From positions 42,346,001-42,410,000 of the forward strand of contig CM126229.1 in NCBI GenBank assembly GCA_052327205.1: 64,000 bases of DNA, given 5' to 3'. The notes under the pieces are model-generated. The model did not search any database, had not been told where the DNA came from, and was given only the letters and a program-made list of their open reading frames with translations. The position numbers were made by a program, and so were the translations under genes. This document shows, in pieces, positions 9,598 to 62,877 of this stretch. The DNA comes from Somniosus microcephalus (Eukaryota). Each line of letters begins with the position of its first letter. Position 1 is the first letter of the stretch.

Positions 9598-9967
9598 CTG
9601 ACCTGGGAGTGGAGTGAGCAGCGACGCCCGACCAGGGCGGACCTGCGTGAGGTACAAGCAGCGCAGCAACTTTAAAAGGAGGGGCGAGGCGAGGCCCGAC
9701 CACAGCGACTGACCTGGGAGTGGAGTGAGCAGCGACGCCTGACCAGAGCGGACCTGCGTGAGGTACAAGCAGCGCGGCAACTTTAAAAGGAGGGGCGAGG
9801 CGAGTCCCGACCACAGCGACTGACCTGGGAGTGGAGTGAGCAGCGACGCCCGACCAGAGCGGACCTGCGTGAGGTACAAGCAGCGCGGCAACTTTAAAAG
9901 GAGGGGCGAGGCGAGGCCCGACCACAGCGGCTGACCTGGGAGTGGAGTGAGCAGCGACGCCCGACCA
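9598..9967 (+). repeat. 111-bp tandem repeat, about 3.3 copies, forming the CR1 5'UTR
   Basis: CTGACCTGGGAGTGGAG starts at 9598, 9709, 9820 and 9931. Confidence 0.93.
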
Positions 9968-10196
9968 ATTCAACAGCAGGGGAGAGAGGTAAAAAGTAAT
10001 CAAAGTGTGATGTCACCAGGAAGCAGGTAAGTGATTGGTTGGTGAGTATTTCTCTCTTTTTTTAAACTTTAACTCTGTTTTATAGTTTCTAAGGTCTCTC
10101 TAGTGTAGCAGGGACTGTTGGTAAACCAGTTAACTGTAGTGTAATTAGTGGGATTGATTGATTTAATTGAAATTCAATTAATTAAAAGGGTAAGTC

Positions 10197-11147
10197 ATGG
10201 CAGGACAGTTGGGCCCTGTGATCTGCTCCTCCTGCGAAATGTGGGAACTCAGGGACACTTCCTGTGTCCCTGACAACTACATGTGCAGGAAGTGCATCCA
10301 GCTGCAGCTACTGACAGACCGCATTGCGGCGCTGGAGCTGCGATTGGATACATACTGGAGCGTTCACGATGCTCAGGACATCGTGAATAGCACATTTACG
10401 GAGTTGGACACACCGCAGGTGGAGGTTGGACAGGAAGAAAGGGAACGGGTGACCAACAGGCAGAGTACTAGGCGCAGGCAGGTAGTGCAGGGGTCCCCTG
10501 TGGCCATCCCCCTCCCCAACAGATACTCCACTTTGAGTACTGTTGGGGGGGATGGCTTATCAGAAGAAGGCAGCAGCAGCCAACTTCCTGGCACCAGGGG
10601 TGGCTCTGCTGCACAGAATGGGAGGAAAAAGAGGGGTAGAGCTATAGTAATAGGGGATTCAATTGTAAGGGGAATAGATAGGCGTTTCTGCGGCCGCAAA
10701 CGAGACTCCAGGATGGTGTGTTGCCTCCCTGGTGCAAGGGTCAAGGATGTCTCCGAGCGGCTGCAGAACATCTTGGAAGGGGAGGGTGAACAGCCAGTTG
10801 TCGTGGTGCATATAGGCACCAACGATATAGGTAAAAAGCGGGAGGAGGTCCTAAAAGCGGAATATAGGGAGTTAGGAGATAAATTAAAAAACAGGACCTC
10901 AGAGGTAGTAATCTCAGGATTGCTACCAGTGCCACGTGCTAGTCAGAGTAGAAATAGAAGGATACTTCAGATGAATACGTGGCTAGAGGAATGGTGCCAG
11001 GGGGAGGGATTGAAGTTCCTGGGACATTGGAACCGGTTCTGGGGGAGGTGGGACCAGTTCAAACCGGACGGTTTGCACCTGGGCAGGGCTGGAACCGATG
11101 TCCTAGGGGGAGTGTTTGCTAGTGCTGTGGGGGAGGGTTTAAACTAA
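10197..11147 (+). CDS. CR1 ORF1p: CxxC...CxxC zinc finger, coiled coil and SGNH/GDSL esterase domain
   Basis: CSSC..CRKC, GDSIVR, HIGTND and DGLH motifs. Intact 316-aa ORF. Confidence 0.92.
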   Translation: MAGQLGPVICSSCEMWELRDTSCVPDNYMCRKCIQLQLLTDRIAALELRLDTYWSVHDAQDIVNSTFTELDTPQVEVGQEERERVTNRQSTRRRQVVQGSPVAIPLPNRYSTLSTVGGDGLSEEGSSSQLPGTRGGSAAQNGRKKRGRAIVIGDSIVRGIDRRFCGRKRDSRMVCCLPGARVKDVSERLQNILEGEGEQPVVVVHIGTNDIGKKREEVLKAEYRELGDKLKNRTSEVVISGLLPVPRASQSRNRRILQMNTWLEEWCQGEGLKFLGHWNRFWGRWDQFKPDGLHLGRAGTDVLGGVFASAVGEGLN

Positions 11148-14127
11148 AATGGCAGGGGGTTGGGAACCTGAGCAGGGAGACAGAGGAAAGGGAAACAAGG
11201 ATAAAAGCAAAAGATAGGAAGGAGAAAAACAAAAGTGGCAGTCAGAGAAATCAACGGTTTAAATCAAACATGGCCACAGTAAATAATAATTCTAATAGGT
11301 CTAAGAGCGTTAAAAAAACAAGCCTGAAGGCTTTGTGTCTTAATGCGAGGAGCATTTGTAATAAGGTGGATGAATTGGCTGTGCAAATAGAAGTAAACAA
11401 ATACGATTTGGTTGGGATTACGGAAACAAGGCTCAAGGAAGGCCAGGACTGGGAACTCAACATCCAGGGGTTTTCGATATTCAGGAAAGACAGGCAAAAA
11501 GGAAAGGGAGGTGGGGTAGCATTACTGGTTAAAGGAGGGCTTAACACAATTGTAATGAAGGATATTAGCTCTGATGAGGTGGAATCTGTATGGGTAGAAT
11601 TGAGAAATACTAGGGGGAAAAAAACGTTAGTGGGAGTGGTTTATAGACCTCCAAACAGTAAGGCGGAGGTTGGGGATGGCATTAAAAGGGAAATTAAAGA
11701 AGCGTGCAATAAGGGCACAGCAGTCATCATGGGTGACTTTACTCCACATATAGATTGGGCCAACCAAATTACTAACAATACTGTGGAGGAGGAATTCCTG
11801 GAGTGTTTACGGGATGGTTTCCTGGACCAATATGTCAAGGAACCAACCAGAGATCAGGCCATCTTAGACTGGGTATTATGTAACGAGGAAGGATTAATTA
11901 GCAATCTTGTTGTACGAGGCCCCTTGGGTCGGAGCGATCATAATATGATCAAATTCTTCATTAAGATGGAGAATGAAGTAGTTGACTCGGAGACTAGGGT
12001 CCTCAATTTAAATAAAGGAAACTACGATGGTCTGAGGAGCGAGTTGGGTAGGATTGATTGGGGAATTGCACTCAAAGGGTTGATGGTGGATAGGCAAAGG
12101 CAAACATTCAAAGACCGAATGGATGAACTACAGAATTTGTTCATCCCAGTTTGGCATAAAAATAAAACAAAAAAGGTGACCCAACCGTGGCTAACAAGGG
12201 AAATTAGGGATAGCATAAGGTCCAAGGAGAGGGCATATCAATTGGCCAGAAAAAGCAATAATCCTGAGGATTGGGAGCAGTTTAGGATTCAACAAAGGAG
12301 GACAAAGGGATTAATTAAGAAAGGGAAAATAGAATATGAGAGTAAGCTAGCAGGGAACATAAAAACTGACTGTAAAAGCTTTTATAGATATGTGAAGAGA
12401 AAAAGATTGGTGAAGTCAAGCGTAGGTCCCTTGCAGTCAGAATCAGGGGAATTTATAATGGGAAACAAAGAAATGGCAGACCAACTAAATACATATTTTG
12501 GTTCTGTCTTCACAAAGGAGGACACAAATAACCTCCCAGAGATGCTGGGGAACATAGGGTCTGATGAAAGGGTGGAACTGAAAGAAATCAGTATTTGTAG
12601 GGAAATGGTGTTAGGAAAATTGATGGGACTGAAGGCCGATAAATCCCCAGGGCCTGATAATCTACATCCCAGGGTACTTAAGGAAGTGGCCCTAGAAATA
12701 GTAGATGCATTGCTGGTCATCCTCCAGAACTCGATAGATTCTGGAACGGTACCCATGGATTGGCGGGTAGCTAATGTTACCCCACTATTCAAAAAAGGTG
12801 GTAGAGAAAAGGCGGGGAATTATAGACCGGTAAGCTTGACATTGGTAGTGGGGAAAATGCTAGAGTCCATTATAAAAGATGTAATAGCAGAGCACTTGGA
12901 AAGCAGTGACTGGATCGGACAAAGTCAACATGGATTTACAAAAGGTAAATCATGCTTGACTAATCTACTGGAATTTTTTGAGGATGTAACTGGTAAAATA
13001 GATAAGGGAGAACTAATGGATGTGGTGTATTTGGACTTTCAGAAGGCTTTCGATAAGGCCCCGCATAAGAGATTAGCGTGCAAAATTAAGGCACATGGGA
13101 TTGGGGGCAAGGTATTGACTTGGATAGAGAACTGGTTGGCGGACAGAAAGCAAAGAGTTGGAATAAATGGGTCGTTTTCCGAGTGGCAGGCAGTGACTAG
13201 TGGGGTACCGCAAGGATTGGTCCTAGGACCCCAGCTGTTCACAATATATATTAATGATCTGGACGAGGGAATTGGATGTAGTATCTCCAAATTTGCAGAG
13301 GACACAAAGCTGGGTGGGAGGGTATGCTGTGAGGAGGATGTCGTGAAACTCCAGTACGATTTGGACAGGTTGGGTGATTGGGCAGAAACATGGCAAATGC
13401 ACTATAATGTGGATAAATGTGAGGTTATCCACTTTGGTGGCAAAAACAGGAAGGCAGATTATTTGAATGCAATAGATTGGGAGAAGGGGAAGTGCAAAGA
13501 GACCTGGGTGTTCCTGTGCACCAGTCGCTGAAGGTAAACATGCAGGTGCAGCAGGCGGTTAAGGCGGCAAATGGTATGTTGGTCTTCGTAGCAAGAGGGT
13601 TCAAGTACAAGAACAAGGATGTCTTGCTGCAGTTGTACAGGGCCTTGGTGAGACCGCACCTTGAGTATTGTGTGCAGTTTTGGTTGCCTTACCTGAGGAA
13701 GGGCGGGCTTGCCATGGAAGGAGTGCAGCGAAGATTCACCAGGCTGATACCTGGGATGGCAGGAATGACGTATGAGGAGCGATTGTGTCGATTGGGCTTA
13801 TACTCACTGGAGTTTAGAAGATTGAGAGGGGATCTCATTGAAACCTATAAAATTCTGTCAGGCCTGGACAGACTAGATGCAGGAAGGATGTTTCTGATGG
13901 CCGGGGAGTCCAGAACCAGGGGTCATAGTCTAAGGATAAGGGGTAAGCCATTTAGGACTGAAATGAGGAGGAATTTCTTCACCCAGAGAGTGGTGAACCT
14001 GTGGAATTCTCTGCCACAGAGGGCGGTGGAGGCCAGTTCATTAAGTATATTCAAGAAAGAGTTGGATATATTTCTTAAGGCTAAAGGGATCAAGGGATAT
14101 GGGGAGAAGGCAGGGACAGGGTACTGA
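11123..14127 (+). pseudogene. CR1 ORF2 (apurinic endonuclease + reverse transcriptase), frameshifted near 13460-13480
   Basis: APE motifs (ITET, YRPP, GDF, SDH) and RT motifs (QHGF, AFDK, PQG). The catalytic FADD is changed to FAED, GDFN is changed to GDFT, and the C-terminus is in a second frame (13477-14127). Confidence 0.93.
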
Positions 14128-16866
14128 ATTTGGATGATCAGCCATGATCTCATTGAATGGCGGAGCAGGCTCGAAGGGCCGAATGGCCTACTCCTGCTCC
14201 TATCTTCTATGTTTCTATGTTTTTCATGGCAACATGAGGCTGGTAGTTCAAGAAAGATTGGGATGTTACATTGTGGTGTGCAGCTGATGGAGACCCACAC
14301 TGCTGCACTGTCAAAGAACTTCATGCTCTAACCCTTCCCTCTCTATAAAGTAAACCCAGAATTTCACAGGTGAATGTCAAGTTATTCATTTTTTCTAATA
14401 CCCTCATGAATGAGAATTGAGTCAAAAGTGTTCCCAAAAGAATTGCTTAGATCGAGTCACATATTTATCATACATTTTAATGTACAATGTACATTAGAGA
14501 AATGAGCACTTTAAGGATTTAAGAGCCTCACCCCAGCCTCCTCTGCCCCAGTGTTTAGCACCCTGCAATTACTGTAAAATCCAACGTCCCCGTGTTTCTT
14601 TCACTTGAGACAAACCTTCCCTCTCAGCCATCAGTGACAATGTTAGCCAACATCAATTATCCACATGCTTTAACAAGAACAGTCTTAAAGGCTAATAATA
14701 CATTCAAACATGCTCGTGCTAAAGGTTCCTCAAACAACATTGTGCAGTTGAAAACATTTCATAAATATAAAATTAGAAAAATACTTCTGCAGTATATAAA
14801 AGGATATTTGCTGCCAATTAGTTTCCTCTATTAAGATGTAATTTTTGATATTTCCCCTCCCCTATCGGCCTTCATATCCACACTCTCGCACCTACTGGGA
14901 GAGGCAGGCAGCTCTCCTGCTCCAGGGATGGTCACCTGAAGAAGCAGATGACATGCTGTTCTACTCTGGAGGGAAGCACTCACTCCACTTGGCATGGTTG
15001 AGTCTGGGGAACTGTGCAGGGTAACAGCAGGCATCAAGCCCATGCTTGAACGCTCTGAGGCAACATCCAAGATATATTTTTTCTTCTATTTATCAAGGTG
15101 AAGATAAGTCGACTGAATGGAAAGTATTTGCCACAGTGCAATACGCTGGACTACCAGTGACATGACATTAAGAGTCGGCTTCACAACCAGATAGCACAGG
15201 GATCAAATCACAAACACTTGAACTTGTGTCACAGCCGAAGGCTCACTATGTGGAGACAGGTGGCAAAGGGACTGACATCAAATCAGATCGCCAATAATTG
15301 GTCACAATCACAAGAAACTGAAATTGATCACACCTCTGTTGGGCATGGCCGATTTACAAATAATTAACAAAACAAGTTTAATACTTCAAGGGATTAAAAC
15401 AATTGTGAAATGGACAAGTATTTGAGAGAAAACAGCATTTTTTCGATTTATAAATTTACACCAAATTATGATGCTTCATTCAGCCCAGAAAAATAAAATT
15501 TAGGGCCAAGATTTGCACAAAAAACTACAAATTGGGTAAATTTCCTCCTGTTTTTAAAAAAAAAAGTGAAAAAAAAGTATTTGGGAGTTAAGGTTTTGTT
15601 TCTTAAGGCTGCTCAATTTAAGCATTGAAGAACTGGAATGTGGTATTAGGCTTTTACACCCTACATGTTTGTTCTACCCAAAATGCATTGCTTCAGTTAT
15701 ACAAAAATCAACAGTGTCATCTTGGACCTCCATAGAACACAGGTTAGAGCCAGGGGTTCACCACAAAGTAAACTTCTGATCTTTCCAGTGTTGTTGTTGG
15801 CAGACACGCTGAGGAAGATCAGGCATCCCAAGCTCAGTGCCCACACCGGGAATCACATCCCAAGCTCAGTATCGATGCGCATAGCAGAGGACTGATAGCA
15901 GATCTCAGCCTATGTGGGTGGTCAGGGACGGTGAGTGGAATGGACAGTTTCATAGTGAGCAACAAACCTCACAGATTAAAATACAAATTAAATTAAGTAT
16001 GCAGTTCTCGCTCCCTCTGGAAAAGGGGAGCCAACAGCACAGTGTGTGTGAAGCATTTGGGAATAAACACCTTCATAAATTGCCTGTATAGCTTGGCATT
16101 ACTTAAGTAAAAAAACAGAAAACGATGAAATTAATCTCAAGAAGCTGCACCAGAGGTTTGTAGTTCACTACTATAATTATTAAAAAAAGTTAATTTGGTA
16201 ATTTCTGCAATAATAAGATAACAGACTTGAATGGTGGCATAGTGCTAATTAATTCAACTTACAGCAGTAGAAGCCCCTTAACCCACCCCTATAGCGTGTG
16301 AGCCCATGGATCATATCCTGCAGTTACCCTGAACCATTCCATAGTATCCACTCCCTTAATTATTCAAATATCTGGAATAGCGATGCATTGCAAGTAACGA
16401 ACCGTGCAATCTATGGATTTAGTTGAAGACAGCACACGCAGCTTAACCTGTTAGTCTGTTCTCTGCTTAATTCACAGGCTGTCAAGTACAATCAGGACAT
16501 TACTGTGTATAGTGGGCAGGTAGGTGTGTGGCACACTGGTATGATCAATGCACTACATCATTAATTCTGCAATACACCCATGATTCTCCACATTAAACTC
16601 CCAAACTCAGTCAGAGCAAAATACTGAGCAAAGATTTTTTTACTTGCCCACAGTGAGCGGAGATGAAGGGAAAGGGGTCAATCTGGGGTCCTCTATTGTA
16701 CCAGCTAGAGTGGTGCAAGAACAAGTTGCAAAATTGTGACATTAAACAAACAGCATAAAATGTTCAAAGTAACTGGAGACAGCACTGATGTTAGATTTAG
16801 TGAGTTATCCATTTGGAAACTCCATGCTCAAAGATTGTTAATTCACTTCCAAACACGTCTGCTTAC

Positions 16867-17986: not shown

Positions 17987-20369
17987 GAACCAGAAGGAGG
18001 AAACACAGAGTGAGGAACCAGAAGGAGGAAACACAAGAGTGAGGAACCAGAAGGAGGAAACACAAGAGTGAGGAACCAGAAGGAGGAAACAGAGTGAGGA
18101 ACCAGAAGGATGAAACAGAGTGAGGAACCAGAAGGAGGAAACAGAGTGAGGAACCAGAAGGATGAAACAGAGTGAGGAACCAGAAGGATGAAACAGAGTG
18201 AGGAACCAGAAGGAGGAAACACAAGAGTGAGGAACCAGAAGGAGGAAACAGAGTGAGGAACCAGAAGGAGGAAACAGAGTGAGGAACCAGAAGGAGGAAA
18301 CACAAGAGTGAGGAACCAGAAGGAGGAAACACAGAGTGAGGAACCAGAAGGATGAAACAGAGTGAGGAACCAGAAGGAGGAAACAGAGTGAGGAACCAGA
18401 AGGAGGAAACACAAGAGTGAGGAACCAGAAGGAGGAAACAGAGTGAGGAACCAGAAGGAGGAAACAGAGTGAGGAACCAGAAGGATGAAACAGAGTGAGG
18501 AACCAGAAGGAGGAAACACAAGAGTGAGGAACCAGAAGGAGGAAACAGAGTGAGGAACCAGAAGGAGGAAACAGAGTGAGGAACCAGAAGGAGGAAACAC
18601 AAGAGTGAGGAACCAGAAGGAGGAAACAGAGTGAGGAACCAGAAGGAGGAAACAGAGTGAGGAACCAGAAGGAGGAAACACAAGAGTGAGGAACCAGAAG
18701 GATGAAACAGAGTGAGGAACCAGAAGGATGAAACAGAGTGAGGAACCAGAAGGATGAAACAGAGTGAGGAACCAGAAGGATGAAACAGAGTGAGGAACCA
18801 GAAGGATGAAACAGAGTGAGGAACCAGAAGGATGAAACAGAGTGAGGAACCAGAAGGAGGAAACACAAGAGTGAGGAACCAGAAGGAGGAAACAGAGTGA
18901 GGAACCAGAAGGAGGAAACACAAGAGTGAGGAACCAGAAGGAGGAAACAGAGTGAGGAACCAGAAGGAGGAAACAGAGTGAGGAACCAGAAGGATGAAAC
19001 AGAGTGAGGAACCAGAAGGATGAAACAGAGTGAGGAACCAGAAGGAGGAAACACAAGAGTGAGGAACCAGAAGGATGAAACAGAGTGAGGAACCAGAAGG
19101 AGGAAACACAAGAGTGAGGAACCAGAAGGAGGAAACAGAGTGAGGAACCAGAAGGAGGAAACACAAGAGTGAGGAACCAGAAGGAGGAAACAGAGTGAGG
19201 AACCAGAAGGAGGAAACACAAGAGTGAGGAACCAGAAGGATGAAACAGAGTGAGGAACCAGAAGGAGGAAACACAAGAGTGAGGAACCAGAAGGAGGAAA
19301 CAGAGTGAGGAACCAGAAGGAGGAAACAGAGTGAGGAACCAGAAGGATGAAACAGAGTGAGGAACCAGAAGGAGGAAACACAAGAGTGAGGAACCAGAAG
19401 GAGGAAACAGAGTGAGGAACCAGAAGGAGGAAACACAAGAGTGAGGAACCAGAAGGATGAAACAGAGTGAGGAACCAGAAGGAGGAAACACAAGAGTGAG
19501 GAACCAGAAGGAGGAAACAGAGTGAGGAACCAGAAGGAGGAAACAGAGTGAGGAACCAGAAGGAGGAAACACAAGAGTGAGGAACCAGAAGGATGAAACA
19601 GAGTGAGGAACCAGAAGGATGAAACAGAGTGAGGAACCAGAAGGAGGAAACAGAGTGAGGAACCAGAAGGAGGAAACAGAGTGAGGAACCAGAAGGATGA
19701 AACACAGAGTGAGGAACCAGAAGGAGGAAACACAGAGTGAGGAACCAGAAGGAGGAAACACAGAGTGAGGAACCAGAAGGAGGAAACACAAGAGTGAGGA
19801 ACCAGAAGGAGGAAACACAGAGTGAGGAACCAGAAGGAGGAAACACAAGAGTGAGGAACCAGAAGGAGGAAACACAGAGTGAGGAACCAGAAGGAGGAAA
19901 CACAAGAGTGAGGAACCAGAAGGAGGAAACACAGAGTGAGGAACCAGAAGGAGGAAACACAAGAGTGAGGAACCAGAAGGAGGAAACACAGAGTGAGGAA
20001 CCAGAAGGAGGAAACACAGAGTGAGGAACCAGAAGGATGAAACACAGAGTGAGGAACCAGAAGGAGGAAACACAGAGTGAGGAACCAGAAGGAGGAAACA
20101 CAGAGTGAGGAACCAGAAGGAGGAAACACAAGAGTGAGGAACCAGAAGGAGGAAACACAGAGTGAGGAACCAGAAGGAGGAAACACAAGAGTGAGGAACC
20201 AGAAGGAGGAAACACAAGAGTGAGGAACCAGAAGGATGAAACAGAGTGAGGAACCAGAAGGATGAAACAGAGTGAGGAACCAGAAGGATGAAACAGAGTG
20301 AGGAACCAGAAGGAGGAAACACAAGAGTGAGGAACCAGAAGGATGAAACAGAGTGAGGAACCAGAAGGA
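17987..20369. repeat. Minisatellite, 26/28/29-bp variant units GAGTGAGGAACCAGAAGGA(G/T)GAAACA(CA/CAA), roughly 85-90 copies
   Basis: Directly visible. It produces spurious ~800-aa ORFs in all three minus frames. Confidence 0.98.
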
Positions 20370-20576
20370 GTACAAAGGAACAGCAGCAAATCACAGGGCA
20401 TTAAATTCAACCCAACAGTTTTGATGTCACAAACAGTAATGGCAAAGTTCAAATGTTTTATGAAGAGATGGGTGGAGACTGTATTAGGGCCTCATAAACC
20501 CCATGGCTGCTGTTCCTCTCCTATAATGTATAGTGCAGTTTATTTAAATAGAACATTTGTTTTCAACTGGTCTTAC

Positions 20577-58787: not shown

Positions 58788-59193
58788 CCCATTCCGATGC
58801 ATCTGACTAACCGCCCTCCGCGCTTCAATGGGGTTGTGATTTTCCCCATTCCGATGTATCTGACTAACCGCCTTCCGCACTTCAATGGGGTTGTGATTTG
58901 CCCCATTCCGATGTATCTGACTAACCGCCCTCCGCACTTCAATGGGGTTGTGATTTGCCCCATTCCGATGTATTTGATTAACCGCCCTCCGCACTTCAAT
59001 GGGGCTGTGATTTGCCCCATTCCGATGTATTTGATTAACCGCCCTCCGCACTTCAATGGGGCTGTGATTTGCCCCATACCGATGTATTTGATTAACCGCC
59101 CTCCGCACTTCAATGGGGTTGTGATTTGCCCCATTCCGATGTATTTGATTAACCGCCCTCCGCACTTCAATGGGGCTGTGATTTGCCCCATTC
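58788..59193. repeat. 57-bp tandem repeat, about 7 copies
   Basis: Unit CCCATTCCGATGTATTTGATTAACCGCCCTCCGCACTTCAATGGGG(T/C)TGTGATTTGC, with 19-aa periodicity in the ORF track. Confidence 0.95.
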
Positions 59194-59989: not shown

Positions 59990-62877
59990 TATATAAGGGC
60001 AAGGCTGGATGGCATCCATTTTAATGCAAGGAGTCTTGCAAATAAGGTGGATGAACTGAAGGTGTTGATAAACACATGGGAGTATGATATTGTTGCTATC
60101 ACGGAGACATGGTTGAGGGAAGGGCAAGATTGGCAGCTCAATATTCCGGGGTACAGAATCTTCAGGCGAGACAGAGGGGGAGGTATGAGAGGAGGGGGTG
60201 TCGCAATATTAATTAAGGAGTCAATTACTGCAGTAAGGAGGGATGATATATTAGCAGGGTCCTCTCATGAGGCCATATGGGTGGAGCTTAAAAACAAAAA
60301 GGGGGCAAGCACTTTGCTGGGCGTGTACTATAGGCCTCCAAACAGTCAGGAGGAGATAGAGGAACAGATATGTAGGCAAATCTCAGAAATGTGCAAATAA
60401 TAGGGTAATAATAATGGGGGATTTCAACTTCCCCAATATTAACTGGGATAGTCAGAGTGTGAAAGGCTCAGAGGGTGTAGAATTCTTAAAGTGCATCCAG
60501 GAGAGCTTTTTGAGCCAGCATGTAGAAAGTCCTACAAGAGAGGGGGCGGTACTGGACCTAATTCTAGGGAATGTGGCCGGCCAAGTGGAAAAAGTGCTAG
60601 TAGGTGAGCACTTTGGTGACAGTGACCATAATATGGTAAGATTTAAGGTGGTCATGGAAAAGGACAGGGATGGGCCGGAAATAAAGGTTCTAAATTGGGG
60701 GAAGGCCGATTTTAATAGGATAAGGCAGGATCTGGCCAAAATGGACTGGGATCAGCTACTTGTAGGAAAATCCGCATCGGAGCAATGGGAGGCTTTCAGA
60801 AGGGAGATTGAGATCATACAATGGCAACATGTTCCCGTAAAGGTCAAGGGTGGTTCCAAAAACCACAGGGAACCTTGGATGTCAGGGGATATACGAGAAT
60901 GGATTAGGAAAAAAAGGAGGGCTTTTGGTAGATACAAAAGGCTAAAGACGGAGGAAGCCCTAGAGGAGTACAAAAAGTGCAGGGGGATACTTAAAAAAGA
61001 AATTAGGAGATCAAGGAGGGGCCATGAAATAACACTGGCGAGCAAAATAAAGGAAAATCCGAAGATGTTTTATAAGTATATTAAGGGTAAGAGGATAACT
61101 AGGGAAAAAATAGGGCCCATTAGGGACAAAAGTGGCAATCTGTGTGTGGAGCCGGAAGATGTAGGAGGGGTTCTAAATGAATTTTTTGCATCTGTTTTCA
61201 CTATGGAGAAGGACGATGTAGACATAGAAATAGGGCGGGGGGGACTGTGATATGCTCGAACATATTAACATCGAGAGGGAGGAGGTATTGGCGGTTTTAG
61301 CTGGCCTAAAAATGGATAAATCCCCAGGCCCGGATGAAATGTATCCCAGGCTGCTGTGTGAGGCAAAGGAGGAGATTGCGGGGGCTCTAACACATATATT
61401 CAGGACCTCTCTGGCCACAGGGGATGTGCCAGAGGACTGGAGAACCGTTAATGTAGTACCATTATTCAAGAAGGGTAGTAGGGAAAAACCGGGGAACTAC
61501 AGGCCAGTGAGCCTAACATCAGTGGTAGGAAAACTATTGGAAAAAATCCTGAGGGACAAAATTTGTCTCCACTTGGAGAGGCAAGGATTAATCAGGGATA
61601 GTCAACATGGCTTTGTCAAGGGAAGATCATGTCTGACTAATTTGATTGAATTTTTTGAGGGGGTGACTAGGTGTGTGGATGAGGGTAACAGTGGATGTGG
61701 TATACATGGATTTCAGTAAGGCCTTCGATAAAGTCCCGCACAGGAGACTGGTCAAGAAGGTAAGAGCCCATGGAATCCAGGGTGCCTTGGCACATTGGAT
61801 ACAAAACTGGCTTAGTGGCAGAAGGTGATGGTCGAAGGCTGTTTTTGTGACTGGAAGCCTGTGGCCAGTGGGGTACCACAGGGATCGGTGCTGGGTCCCT
61901 TGCTGTTTGTGGTCTACATTAATGACTTGGATATGAATGTAAAGGGTATGATCAGTAAGTTCGCGGATGATACAAAAATTGGTAGGGTGGTAAATAGCGA
62001 GGAGGGTAGCCTCAGTTTGCAGGACGATATAGATGGGTTGGTCAGATGGGCGGAACAGTGGCAAATGGAATTTAACCCGGAAAAGTGTGAGGTGATGCAC
62101 TTTGGGGGGACTAACAAGGCAAGGGAATACACAATGAATGGAAAGACCCTAGGCAAGACGGAGGGTCAGAGGGATCTGGGTGTGCAAGTACACAGATCCC
62201 TGAAGGCGGCGGAACAGGTGGATAAGGTGGTAAAAAAGGCATATGGGATACTTATATTCAATGCCTCGGCTAATGAAGGCAAGAGCAAGGAGGTTATGAT
62301 GGAGCTGTATAAAACACTGGTTAGGCCACAGCTGGAATACTGTGTGCAGTTCTGGTCGCCACACTACAGGAAGGATGTGATCGCGTTAGAGAGGGTGCAG
62401 AGGAGGTTCACCAGGATGTTACCAGGGCTGGAGCGCTTCGGCTATGAAGAGAGACTGGGCAGATTGGGTTTGTTTTCCTTGGAGCAGAGGAGGCTGAGGG
62501 GGGACATGATTGAGGTGTACAAAATTATGAGGGGCATAGATAGGATGGATGCTGAGGAGCTTTTTCCCTTAGTAGAGGGGTCAATAACTAGGGGGCATAG
62601 ATTCAAGGTAAAGGGCGGGAGGTTTAGAGGGGATTTGAGAAAGAACTTTTTCACCCAGAGGGTGGTTGGAGTCTGGAACTCACTGCCTGAAAGGGTTGTG
62701 GAGGCAGAAACCCTCAACATTTAAGAAGCATTTGGATGTGCACTTGAAATGCCATAACATACAAGGCTACGGGCCAAATGCTGGAATATGGGATTAGATT
62801 AGGCAGGGCTTGATGGCCGGCGCGGACACGATGGGCCGATGGGCCTCTATCCGTGCTGTATGACTCTATGACTCTAA
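59990..62877 (+). mobile_element. 5'-truncated CR1 LINE (ORF2 only, different subfamily), disrupted
   Basis: ORF pieces 60047-60400, 60414-61250, 61252-61719 and 61825-62724 encode APE and RT (FADD). Ends in a (GACTCTAT)n tail. Confidence 0.93.

What the first reader, a model, noticed from the sequence alone, without database searches (positions are those of the whole stretch)
11120..11272. Candidate programmed -1 ribosomal frameshift fusing CR1 ORF1 to ORF2 (G-GGU-UUA-AAC-UAA)
Seen: ORF1 ends GGT TTA AAC TAA. This holds two overlapping X-XXY-YYZ slippery heptamers (G GGU UUA and U UUA AAC, 11135-11144) directly before the stop. The -1 frame is the ORF2 frame. It opens after a TAG at 11120-11122, overlaps ORF1 by 25 nt, and stays open for about 42 Lys/Arg/Glu-rich codons before the first AUG at 11270. 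A few nt downstream are a small hairpin (GGTT-GGG-AACC, CAGG/CCTG) and four G-runs (GGGGG, GGG, GGG, GGG). Known: U UUA AAC is the coronavirus -1 frameshift heptamer, and hairpins or G-quadruplexes can stimulate -1 frameshifting. L1 ORF2 is thought to use termination-reinitiation instead. Inference: this CR1 lineage may make a Gag-Pol-like ORF1-ORF2 fusion (esterase-EN-RT).
Basis: partly seen in the sequence, partly recalled or inferred. Interest (0 to 1): 0.8.

Follow-up and report, generated by a model that had tools for sequence, protein, structure and literature searches.

The report
Frameshift signal in vertebrate CR1 retrotransposons
A very abundant jumping gene (a CR1 LINE) ends its first gene with a seven-letter slippery sequence plus a stop that distant relatives keep letter for letter, and its second gene, which often has no start codon, continues one base back, so ribosomes likely slip back one base and make one fused protein, as retroviruses do.

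Summary
Observation confirmed; the -1 frameshift reading is well supported by comparison but untested in the lab. U_UUA_AAC-stop (11138-11147) ends ORF1 in 162 of 170 distinct junctions from this genome, including 15 of 18 from a blind 1 Mb sample, and in five distant metagenome loci. Across 11 lineages down to 37% protein identity, 0 of 140 other ORF1 codon columns keep their third base; the last three codons all do. Linkers of 34-80 codons stay in the -1 frame. The AUG at 11270 is not conserved, and a young family with whole ORF2s has its first Met 131 codons inside the endonuclease. Corrections: G_GGU_UUA, the hairpin and the quadruplex are not conserved. A plain GGGGG at +11 to +15 is, and is the candidate stimulator. 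Distant relatives instead have ORF2 in frame behind UGA-C, a readthrough context. No paper found for CR1 in 9 searches, but the classic CR1 papers could not be read. This scan noted the same signal earlier on other DNA.

The parts
9598..14224 (+). Near full-length CR1-type LINE copy of a young family; this copy is broken in ORF2. Both ends are approximate.
   Evidence: 40 scored copies 98-100% identical over 501 bases
9598..9967 (+). 5' untranslated region of 3.3 tandem 111-base units
10197..11147 (+). ORF1, 316 aa: N-terminal Cys motifs and C-terminal SGNH esterase domain, ending L-N-stop
   Evidence: Pfam PF13472 E 3e-13; profile of relatives matches PDB 4c1b at E 3e-50
11138..11144 (+). Slippery heptamer U_UUA_AAC in the ORF1 frame; predicted -1 shift site
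11145..11147 (+). ORF1 stop directly after the heptamer (UAA 14, UAG 4, one decayed, UGA 0 of 19 representatives); read as CUA Leu in the -1 frame
11155..11159 (+). GGGGG at +11 to +15 after the heptamer; conserved at fixed spacing, including two silent positions; candidate unstructured stimulator
   Evidence: G in 19, 19, 18, 17, 18 of 19 representatives; codons
11144..11341 (+). Basic linker, open in the -1 frame, from the shift site to the first conserved Asn of the endonuclease (11342-11344)
11270..11272 (+). First in-frame AUG; not conserved (ATG 32, GTG 14, CTG 1, AGG 1 of 48 copies of this linker type)
11123..13531 (+). ORF2 frame, part 1: APE endonuclease and reverse transcriptase; RT motif reads FAED where intact relatives have FADD
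   Evidence: Pfam PF03372, PF14529, PF00078
13423..14127 (+). ORF2 C-terminal part, in another frame because of a frame break in this copy

Best explanation
This is the ORF1/ORF2 junction of a vertebrate CR1 LINE, where a conserved U_UUA_AAC heptamer plus stop likely makes a small share of ribosomes slip back one base and continue into ORF2, which would give an esterase-endonuclease-reverse transcriptase fusion of about 1,300 residues. Shown by sequence: the heptamer, the adjacent stop, a GGGGG ten bases downstream and an open -1 linker are conserved across lineages, and there is no conserved start codon. Inferred: tRNA-Leu and tRNA-Asn re-pair from UUA AAC to UUU AAA, the next codon read is CUA, and the junction reads G-L-N then L-K-W. 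Most ribosomes would stop, giving excess ORF1 protein. More speculative: with no conserved fold downstream, the pause would come from the stop codon plus the G-run, perhaps with a protein bound to it.
For: (1) Heptamer within 9 nt of the expected place in 162 of 170 distinct own-genome junctions, found with queries that left out the last 9 ORF1 residues; 15 of 18 in a blind 1 Mb sample; 21 of 23 among loci chosen by the endonuclease alone. (2) In 19 representative real copies the third base of codon -3 is T in 19 of 19 over seven different codons, Leu is TTA in 19 of 19 and the last base is C in 19 of 19, while ORF1 background is TTA 48 of 221 Leu and AAC 27 of 89 Asn. AAT would keep both frames' residues, so the C is not explained by protein. 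(3) 0 of 140 other ORF1 codon columns keep their third base across 11 lineages at 37-71% identity to the window family. (4) Linker lengths of 34, 38, 43, 46, 51, 58, 66-70, 74 and 80 codons all keep the -1 phase. (5) The young 46-codon family has 975-codon open ORF2s with first Met at codon 178 in 7 of 8 copies checked (122 in one); the conserved Asn is at 47 and Glu at 74. L031 and L033 have no AUG, CUG, GUG, ACG or UUG in the linker. (6) 77 of 89 ORF1 homologues with the DGxH motif end in L-N, from sharks and rays to a teleost, coelacanth, frogs, turtles and squamates. (7) Distant esterase LINEs have ORF2 in frame behind UGA-C in 17 of 30 loci, a second route to the same fusion.
Against: No measurement of frameshifting or of a fusion protein. 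No conserved 3' structure, which canonical -1 signals need (PMC3542737 passage). The 19 representatives were chosen for an open -1 linker, so their zero stop count is circular; unselected counts are 124 of 142 endonucleases in the -1 frame and 116 of those open. Fifteen of the 19 come from one genome and stand for only a few deep lineages. For tetrapods only protein ends were seen, no DNA. One old family has UAAUG with the AUG in the ORF2 frame (14 of 170 junctions). Eleven of 19 representatives do carry some in-frame AUG in the linker, at scattered places.
Confidence: 0.8

Rival explanations
1. AUG-independent termination-reinitiation, as proposed for mammalian L1: ribosomes stop at the ORF1 stop and restart close by in the -1 frame without an AUG, and the conserved bases are a reinitiation signal rather than a shift site.
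For: Would explain the missing AUG and the open, in-phase linker. A review passage describes AUG-independent initiation as likely for L1 ORF2 (PMC5009743). No 3' structure was found.
Against: Does not predict an exact X_XXY_YYZ pattern in the ORF1 frame, invariant at three silent positions, nor that ORF2 is always in the -1 frame. Relatives with in-frame UGA-C point to fusion.
Confidence: 0.11
2. Reinitiation at an AUG, either a SART1-type UAAUG stop-start or a downstream AUG such as 11270.
For: One old family has UAAUG in the ORF2 frame (13 of 21 junctions from the P0055 search and 1 from the random sample). The window has TAAAATG at 11145-11151 and an in-frame AUG at 11270.
Against: The 11149 AUG is in the +1 frame and varies in reads (A>T in 790 of 4334). 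The 11270 AUG is GTG in 14 of 48 copies, 11 sharing diagnostic changes. 38 of 116 open linkers have no Met.
Confidence: 0.03
3. The frames are joined at RNA level, by polymerase slippage on a G-run or by splicing.
For: In the 46-codon family a G8 run precedes the heptamer, and one extra base fuses the ORFs into a 1,286-codon frame in several copies.
Against: Those copies are scattered on the tree, not one clade. Other families lack that run. RNA reads of a related species list no indel at the heptamer at 1% or more and no RNA joint at the junction among the 15 rows shown (32 not shown).
Confidence: 0.03
4. The pattern is a by-product of protein constraint on the ORF1 end and of shared ancestry, with no recoding role.
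For: L-N lies at the end of the last esterase helix region; many sampled families are related.
Against: All 20 invariant residues elsewhere in the ORF1 C-terminal half vary in codon. The ZfL2-1 esterase matches only to profile position 314 of 318, and distant relatives end differently.
Confidence: 0.03

Closest known systems
Viral -1 programmed frameshift on U_UUA_AAC (coronavirus 1a/1b) and retroviral gag-pol
   Same: Same heptamer, listed among the most shift-prone in mammalian ribosomes (PMC5009743 passage); structural gene followed by an enzyme gene in the -1 frame.
   Different: Found in a non-LTR retrotransposon; the stop follows at once; no conserved stem-loop or pseudoknot at 5-9 nt.
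PRRSV nsp2 protein-stimulated frameshift
   Same: Short sequence motif at fixed distance; PRRSV has CCCANCUCC 11 nt 3' of the shift site (PMC5009743 passage), here GGGGG begins at +11.
   Different: G-rich, not C-rich; no binding protein known or tested; the likeness in spacing is an analogy only.
Dictyostelium TRE5-A and TRE3-A
   Same: APE-type non-LTR elements said in a review figure legend to need a -1 frameshift for ORF2 (PMC5911963 passage).
   Different: Different lineage and ORF1; their junction sequence and the underlying evidence were not seen here.
L1 (AUG-independent reinitiation) and SART1 (UAAUG coupling)
   Same: Bicistronic LINE RNA with ORF2 made at low level (PMC5009743 and PMC3708506 passages).
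   Different: They make a separate ORF2 protein; here there is no conserved start or stop-start and the ORFs overlap in the -1 frame.
Vertebrate CR1 subgroup with esterase ORF1 (CR1 subgroup 7, type IVB) and ZfL2-1 esterase, PDB 4c1b
   Same: Zinc finger or zipper plus esterase ORF1; APE-RT ORF2 (PMC4120745, PMC3905857 passages).
   Different: Neither paper contains the word frameshift in its main text.

Membership tests
Vertebrate CR1 LINE with esterase ORF1 | ORF1 with SGNH esterase domain | tested here: met
   PF13472 E 3e-13; 4c1b E 3e-50
Vertebrate CR1 LINE with esterase ORF1 | ORF2 with APE endonuclease and reverse transcriptase | tested here: met
   PF03372, PF14529, PF00078
Vertebrate CR1 LINE with esterase ORF1 | Short tandem repeat 3' end without poly(A) (feature recalled) | tested here: met
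   Short TCTATG-type repeat at about 14205-14221
Vertebrate CR1 LINE with esterase ORF1 | RT phylogeny inside the CR1 clade rather than L2 | not tested
   No named reference RTs were fetched; the CR1 label rests on architecture and recall
Canonical eukaryotic -1 frameshift signal | X_XXY_YYZ heptamer in the upstream ORF's frame | tested here: met
   11138-11144
Canonical eukaryotic -1 frameshift signal | Downstream ORF open in the -1 frame from the heptamer on | tested here: met
   124 of 142 in the -1 frame, 116 open
Canonical eukaryotic -1 frameshift signal | Conservation at silent positions | tested here: met
Canonical eukaryotic -1 frameshift signal | Stem-loop or pseudoknot 5-9 nt downstream | tested here: not met
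   Folding z-scores of the next 70 nt run from -2.0 to +0.8 in 19 representatives; window z -1.37; one long-range partner rejected. Pseudoknots were not modelled directly.
Canonical eukaryotic -1 frameshift signal | Measured frameshifting or trans-frame product | not testable with these tools
   Needs reporter, proteomics or ribosome profiling
Protein-stimulated frameshift (PRRSV type) | Unstructured conserved motif about 10-11 nt 3' of the shift site | tested here: met
   GGGGG at +11 to +15
Protein-stimulated frameshift (PRRSV type) | A trans-acting protein that binds the motif and is required | not testable with these tools
   No binding data
SART1-type stop-start coupling | UAAUG with the AUG in the ORF2 frame, conserved | tested here: not met
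   Absent in the window; 14 of 170 junctions, all but one from one search of an old family

The most novel reading that the evidence does not exclude
Esterase-ORF1 LINEs make their reverse transcriptase as a Gag-Pol-like ORF1-ORF2 fusion by ribosomal recoding, and have switched route as retroviruses did: vertebrate CR1 by a -1 frameshift driven by a new structure-free signal (heptamer, stop, GGGGG at +11, probably protein-bound), sister lineages by UGA-C readthrough.
Probability: 0.4. Interest if true: 0.88.

Novelty: new variant of a known kind. Interest (0 to 1): 0.74.

Why it matters
How LINEs translate ORF2 is described as unclear outside a few cases (PMC3708506 passage), and CR1 is the main repeat of chicken (PMC11835228 passage) and very abundant in this genome (about 140,000 first-look ORF1 candidates). 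A -1 frameshift would mean the enzyme is made joined to the esterase ORF1 protein at a set ratio, which changes how ORF2 starts are annotated, how the RNP is thought to assemble and how CR1 constructs are built. It also offers a short natural frameshift signal without an RNA fold, testable with one reporter and a few point mutants.

Tried and rejected
G_GGU_UUA as a second site: codon -3 is GGT in 3 of 19 representatives. Hairpin: not above shuffles. G-quadruplex: pattern in 4 of 19, two of them in an unstable G-run family. Long-range pairing of the G-run with a C-rich ORF1 stretch about 630 nt upstream: own partners fold no better than foreign ones (-23.4 vs -23.3; -19.4 vs -19.8 kcal/mol) and it is missing in L031 (11 of 19 representatives had the anchor motif). 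A fused single-ORF lineage: copies with an extra base are scattered on the tree. Viral contigs: 62 pattern matches, none with ORF1 or APE likeness; one weak locus each. Prokaryote genomes: nothing. Sequencing runs: no RNA holder listed; two raw RNA runs added by species label were laid instead. Papers not held: PMC1190309, PMC11146056, PMC1356112, PMC7528939. No structure or complex prediction was run, as it would not bear on the question.

Full report
What is there. The window holds a near full-length LINE at about 9598-14224: a 5' region of 3.3 tandem 111-base units, ORF1 at 10197-11147 with an SGNH esterase (PF13472; a profile of 56 relatives matches the ZfL2-1 esterase 4c1b at E 3e-50), and an APE-RT ORF2 that is broken in this copy near 13450-13530 and has FAED in the RT motif. 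The genome is 6.4 Gb and the closest named ORF1 relatives are from sharks and rays. The family is young: 40 scored copies are 98-100% identical over the junction. The CR1 label rests on architecture; no RT tree with named references was built.

The observation. In this one copy the site is not remarkable: the 9-mer occurs once against 1.05 expected, and ORF1 has one other in-frame slippery heptamer. The question is therefore conservation.

Conservation in this genome. I collected junctions with one DNA query, four ORF1 protein queries, one endonuclease-only query and 100 evenly spaced 10 kb stretches. ORF1 ends were located with queries cut 9 residues short of the end, so that the heptamer did not guide detection. 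Of 178 junctions, 170 were distinct; 162 of 170 have TTTAAAC within 9 nt of the expected place, 142 show the start of the endonuclease, 124 of those in the -1 frame, 116 of those without a stop, and 38 of those without a Met. The blind sample gave 15 of 18 and the endonuclease-only set 21 of 23. The old family from the P0055 search is decayed, with only 6 of 22 endonuclease starts found.

Conservation at silent positions. One real copy was taken from each of 15 clusters of intact junctions, plus 4 distant metagenome loci (L031, L033, L035, L038). Codon -3 takes seven forms (GGT, GCT, GAT, ACT, CAT, TGT, TAT) but always ends in T; Leu is TTA in 19 of 19; Asn is AAC in 18 of 19 (one AGC); background use is TTA 48 of 221 and AAC 27 of 89. 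In a codon alignment of 11 of the 19, at 37-71% identity to the window family, none of 140 gap-free ORF1 columns kept its third base, including all 20 columns with an invariant residue, whereas the last three codons do. Dual coding (L-N-stop over F-K-L) could fix the first six bases but not the final C, since AAT would keep both readings. These copies stand for only a handful of deep lineages, so the counts are not independent trials. At protein level 77 of 89 homologues with the DGxH motif end in L-N, 68 of them exactly 26 residues from the Asp, with named sources from sharks, rays, a teleost, coelacanth, frogs, turtles and squamates (31 of 120 proteins lacked the motif and were not counted). 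No tetrapod DNA was seen.

No conserved start. Linker lengths run from 34 to 80 codons and all keep the -1 phase; the zero stop count in the representatives is by selection. In-frame AUGs occur in 11 of 19 linkers at scattered places. The AUG at 11270 is ATG in 32, GTG in 14, CTG in 1 and AGG in 1 of 48 copies, and 11 GTG copies share diagnostic changes. In the very young 46-codon family (end branches about 0.5%), copies with 975 open codons have their first Met at codon 178 in 7 of 8 cases, far past the conserved Asn (47) and Glu (74). L031 and L033 have no AUG or common near-cognate start in the linker. Against this, one old family has UAAUG in the ORF2 frame (14 of 170 junctions); I read it as chance, since the codon after CUA starts with A after any UAA, but cannot exclude use.

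The stimulator. The hairpin and quadruplex fail, as does a long-range partner in ORF1. What is conserved is GGGGG at +11 to +15 (G in 19, 19, 18, 17, 18 of 19), while +4 to +10 vary. Positions +11 and +14 are third codon positions in the -1 frame; elsewhere in the linkers GGG is 22 of 92 Gly codons and G ends 129 of 272 Gln, Lys and Glu codons. The spacing equals that given for the protein-bound motif of PRRSV, 11 nt 3' of the shift site (PMC5009743 passage). The same review notes a plant virus site whose nearby stop codon is needed for shifting. That the stop and the G-run together stimulate the shift is inference.

Sister lineages. Of 80 metagenome loci, 30 showed both an ORF1 stop and an endonuclease; in 17 of 30 ORF2 is in the ORF1 frame, open right behind the stop, and all 17 read UGA-C, a known leaky context (PMC3542737 passages). 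Many of the 17 are close kin. Four of the 30 carry the heptamer, L039 carries it without a scored endonuclease, and the rest are decayed. Two recoding contexts leading to the same fusion favour fusion over reinitiation.

RNA. Two raw RNA runs of a related species label cover ORF1 and the junction. None of the 40 best-supported variants lies in 11138-11146 while both flanks vary (54 rows not shown, and reads may be favoured for matching there), and the only indel listed at 1% or more is a one-base loss in the G-run. Reads pool many genomic copies and both strands, so they show neither a full-length transcript nor translation.

Literature. Nine full-text searches listed no paper proposing a frameshift for CR1. 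I saw passages only of PMC5009743, PMC3708506, PMC5911963, PMC4255032, PMC3542737, PMC3905857, PMC4120745 and PMC11835228; no supplements were opened. PMC5911963 says in a figure legend that Dictyostelium TRE5-A and TRE3-A need a -1 frameshift, so the idea has a precedent among LINEs. The SART1, L1, amphioxus CR1 and Kapitonov-Jurka papers were not held, and the 1990s chicken and turtle CR1 papers (recalled) were not read; any of them may already mention overlap or frameshifting. This scan's notes hold the same reading from other genomes; they are not independent evidence.

Verdict. A real, deeply conserved recoding-type junction. A -1 frameshift giving an ORF1-ORF2 fusion is the most likely mechanism (0.8), with AUG-independent reinitiation the main rival (0.11). 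It works like a viral -1 site but fails the canonical test of a 3' RNA structure, so it is filed as a new variant. Interest 0.74.

Noticed in passing
L036, L047, L049, L051, L054, L055, L058, L060, L070, L072, L075, L079, L080, L083, L090, L099, L102 (ORF1 stop): Distant esterase-ORF1 LINEs have ORF2 in frame behind a single UGA followed by C: candidate programmed readthrough.
   Followed up: partly
L213, L215, L220, L224, L225, L233, L238: Chimeric subfamily: the last 600 bases of ORF1 are 94-98% like the L192 family, the 600 bases after the heptamer 95-96% like the window's family; an ORF1 swap with its crossover at the conserved junction.
   Followed up: partly
L143, L406-L410, L412, L414, L415: Copies of the 46-codon family with one extra base in the G-run before the heptamer have ORF1 and ORF2 in one frame (up to 1,286 codons); scattered on the tree, so independent slips or assembly errors.
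   Followed up: yes
L172-L190, L261: Old family whose junction is heptamer plus UAAUG with the AUG in the ORF2 frame, followed by an unstable G-rich run.
   Followed up: partly
window 10020-10030 and 10186-10199: Splice-donor-like AGGTAAG and GGGTAAG motifs in the 5' region, the second directly before the ORF1 AUG.
   Followed up: no
window 11269: In RNA run X24, 525 molecules end here against a depth of 2575; may be one expressed truncated copy or duplicates.
   Followed up: no
window 59996-62721: A second, 5'-truncated CR1 copy of another family that starts in the linker and lacks the junction.
   Followed up: partly
window 17987-20370: A+G-rich minisatellite, about 87 copies of a 26-base unit.
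   Followed up: no
window 58788-59193: Tandem array of 7 copies of a 57-base unit, 96% alike.
   Followed up: no
proteins P0008, P0038, P0125: A CR1 ORF1 is filed under Pseudomonas aeruginosa (likely contamination); two ray gene models run from the esterase through F-K-L into the linker and endonuclease.
   Followed up: no
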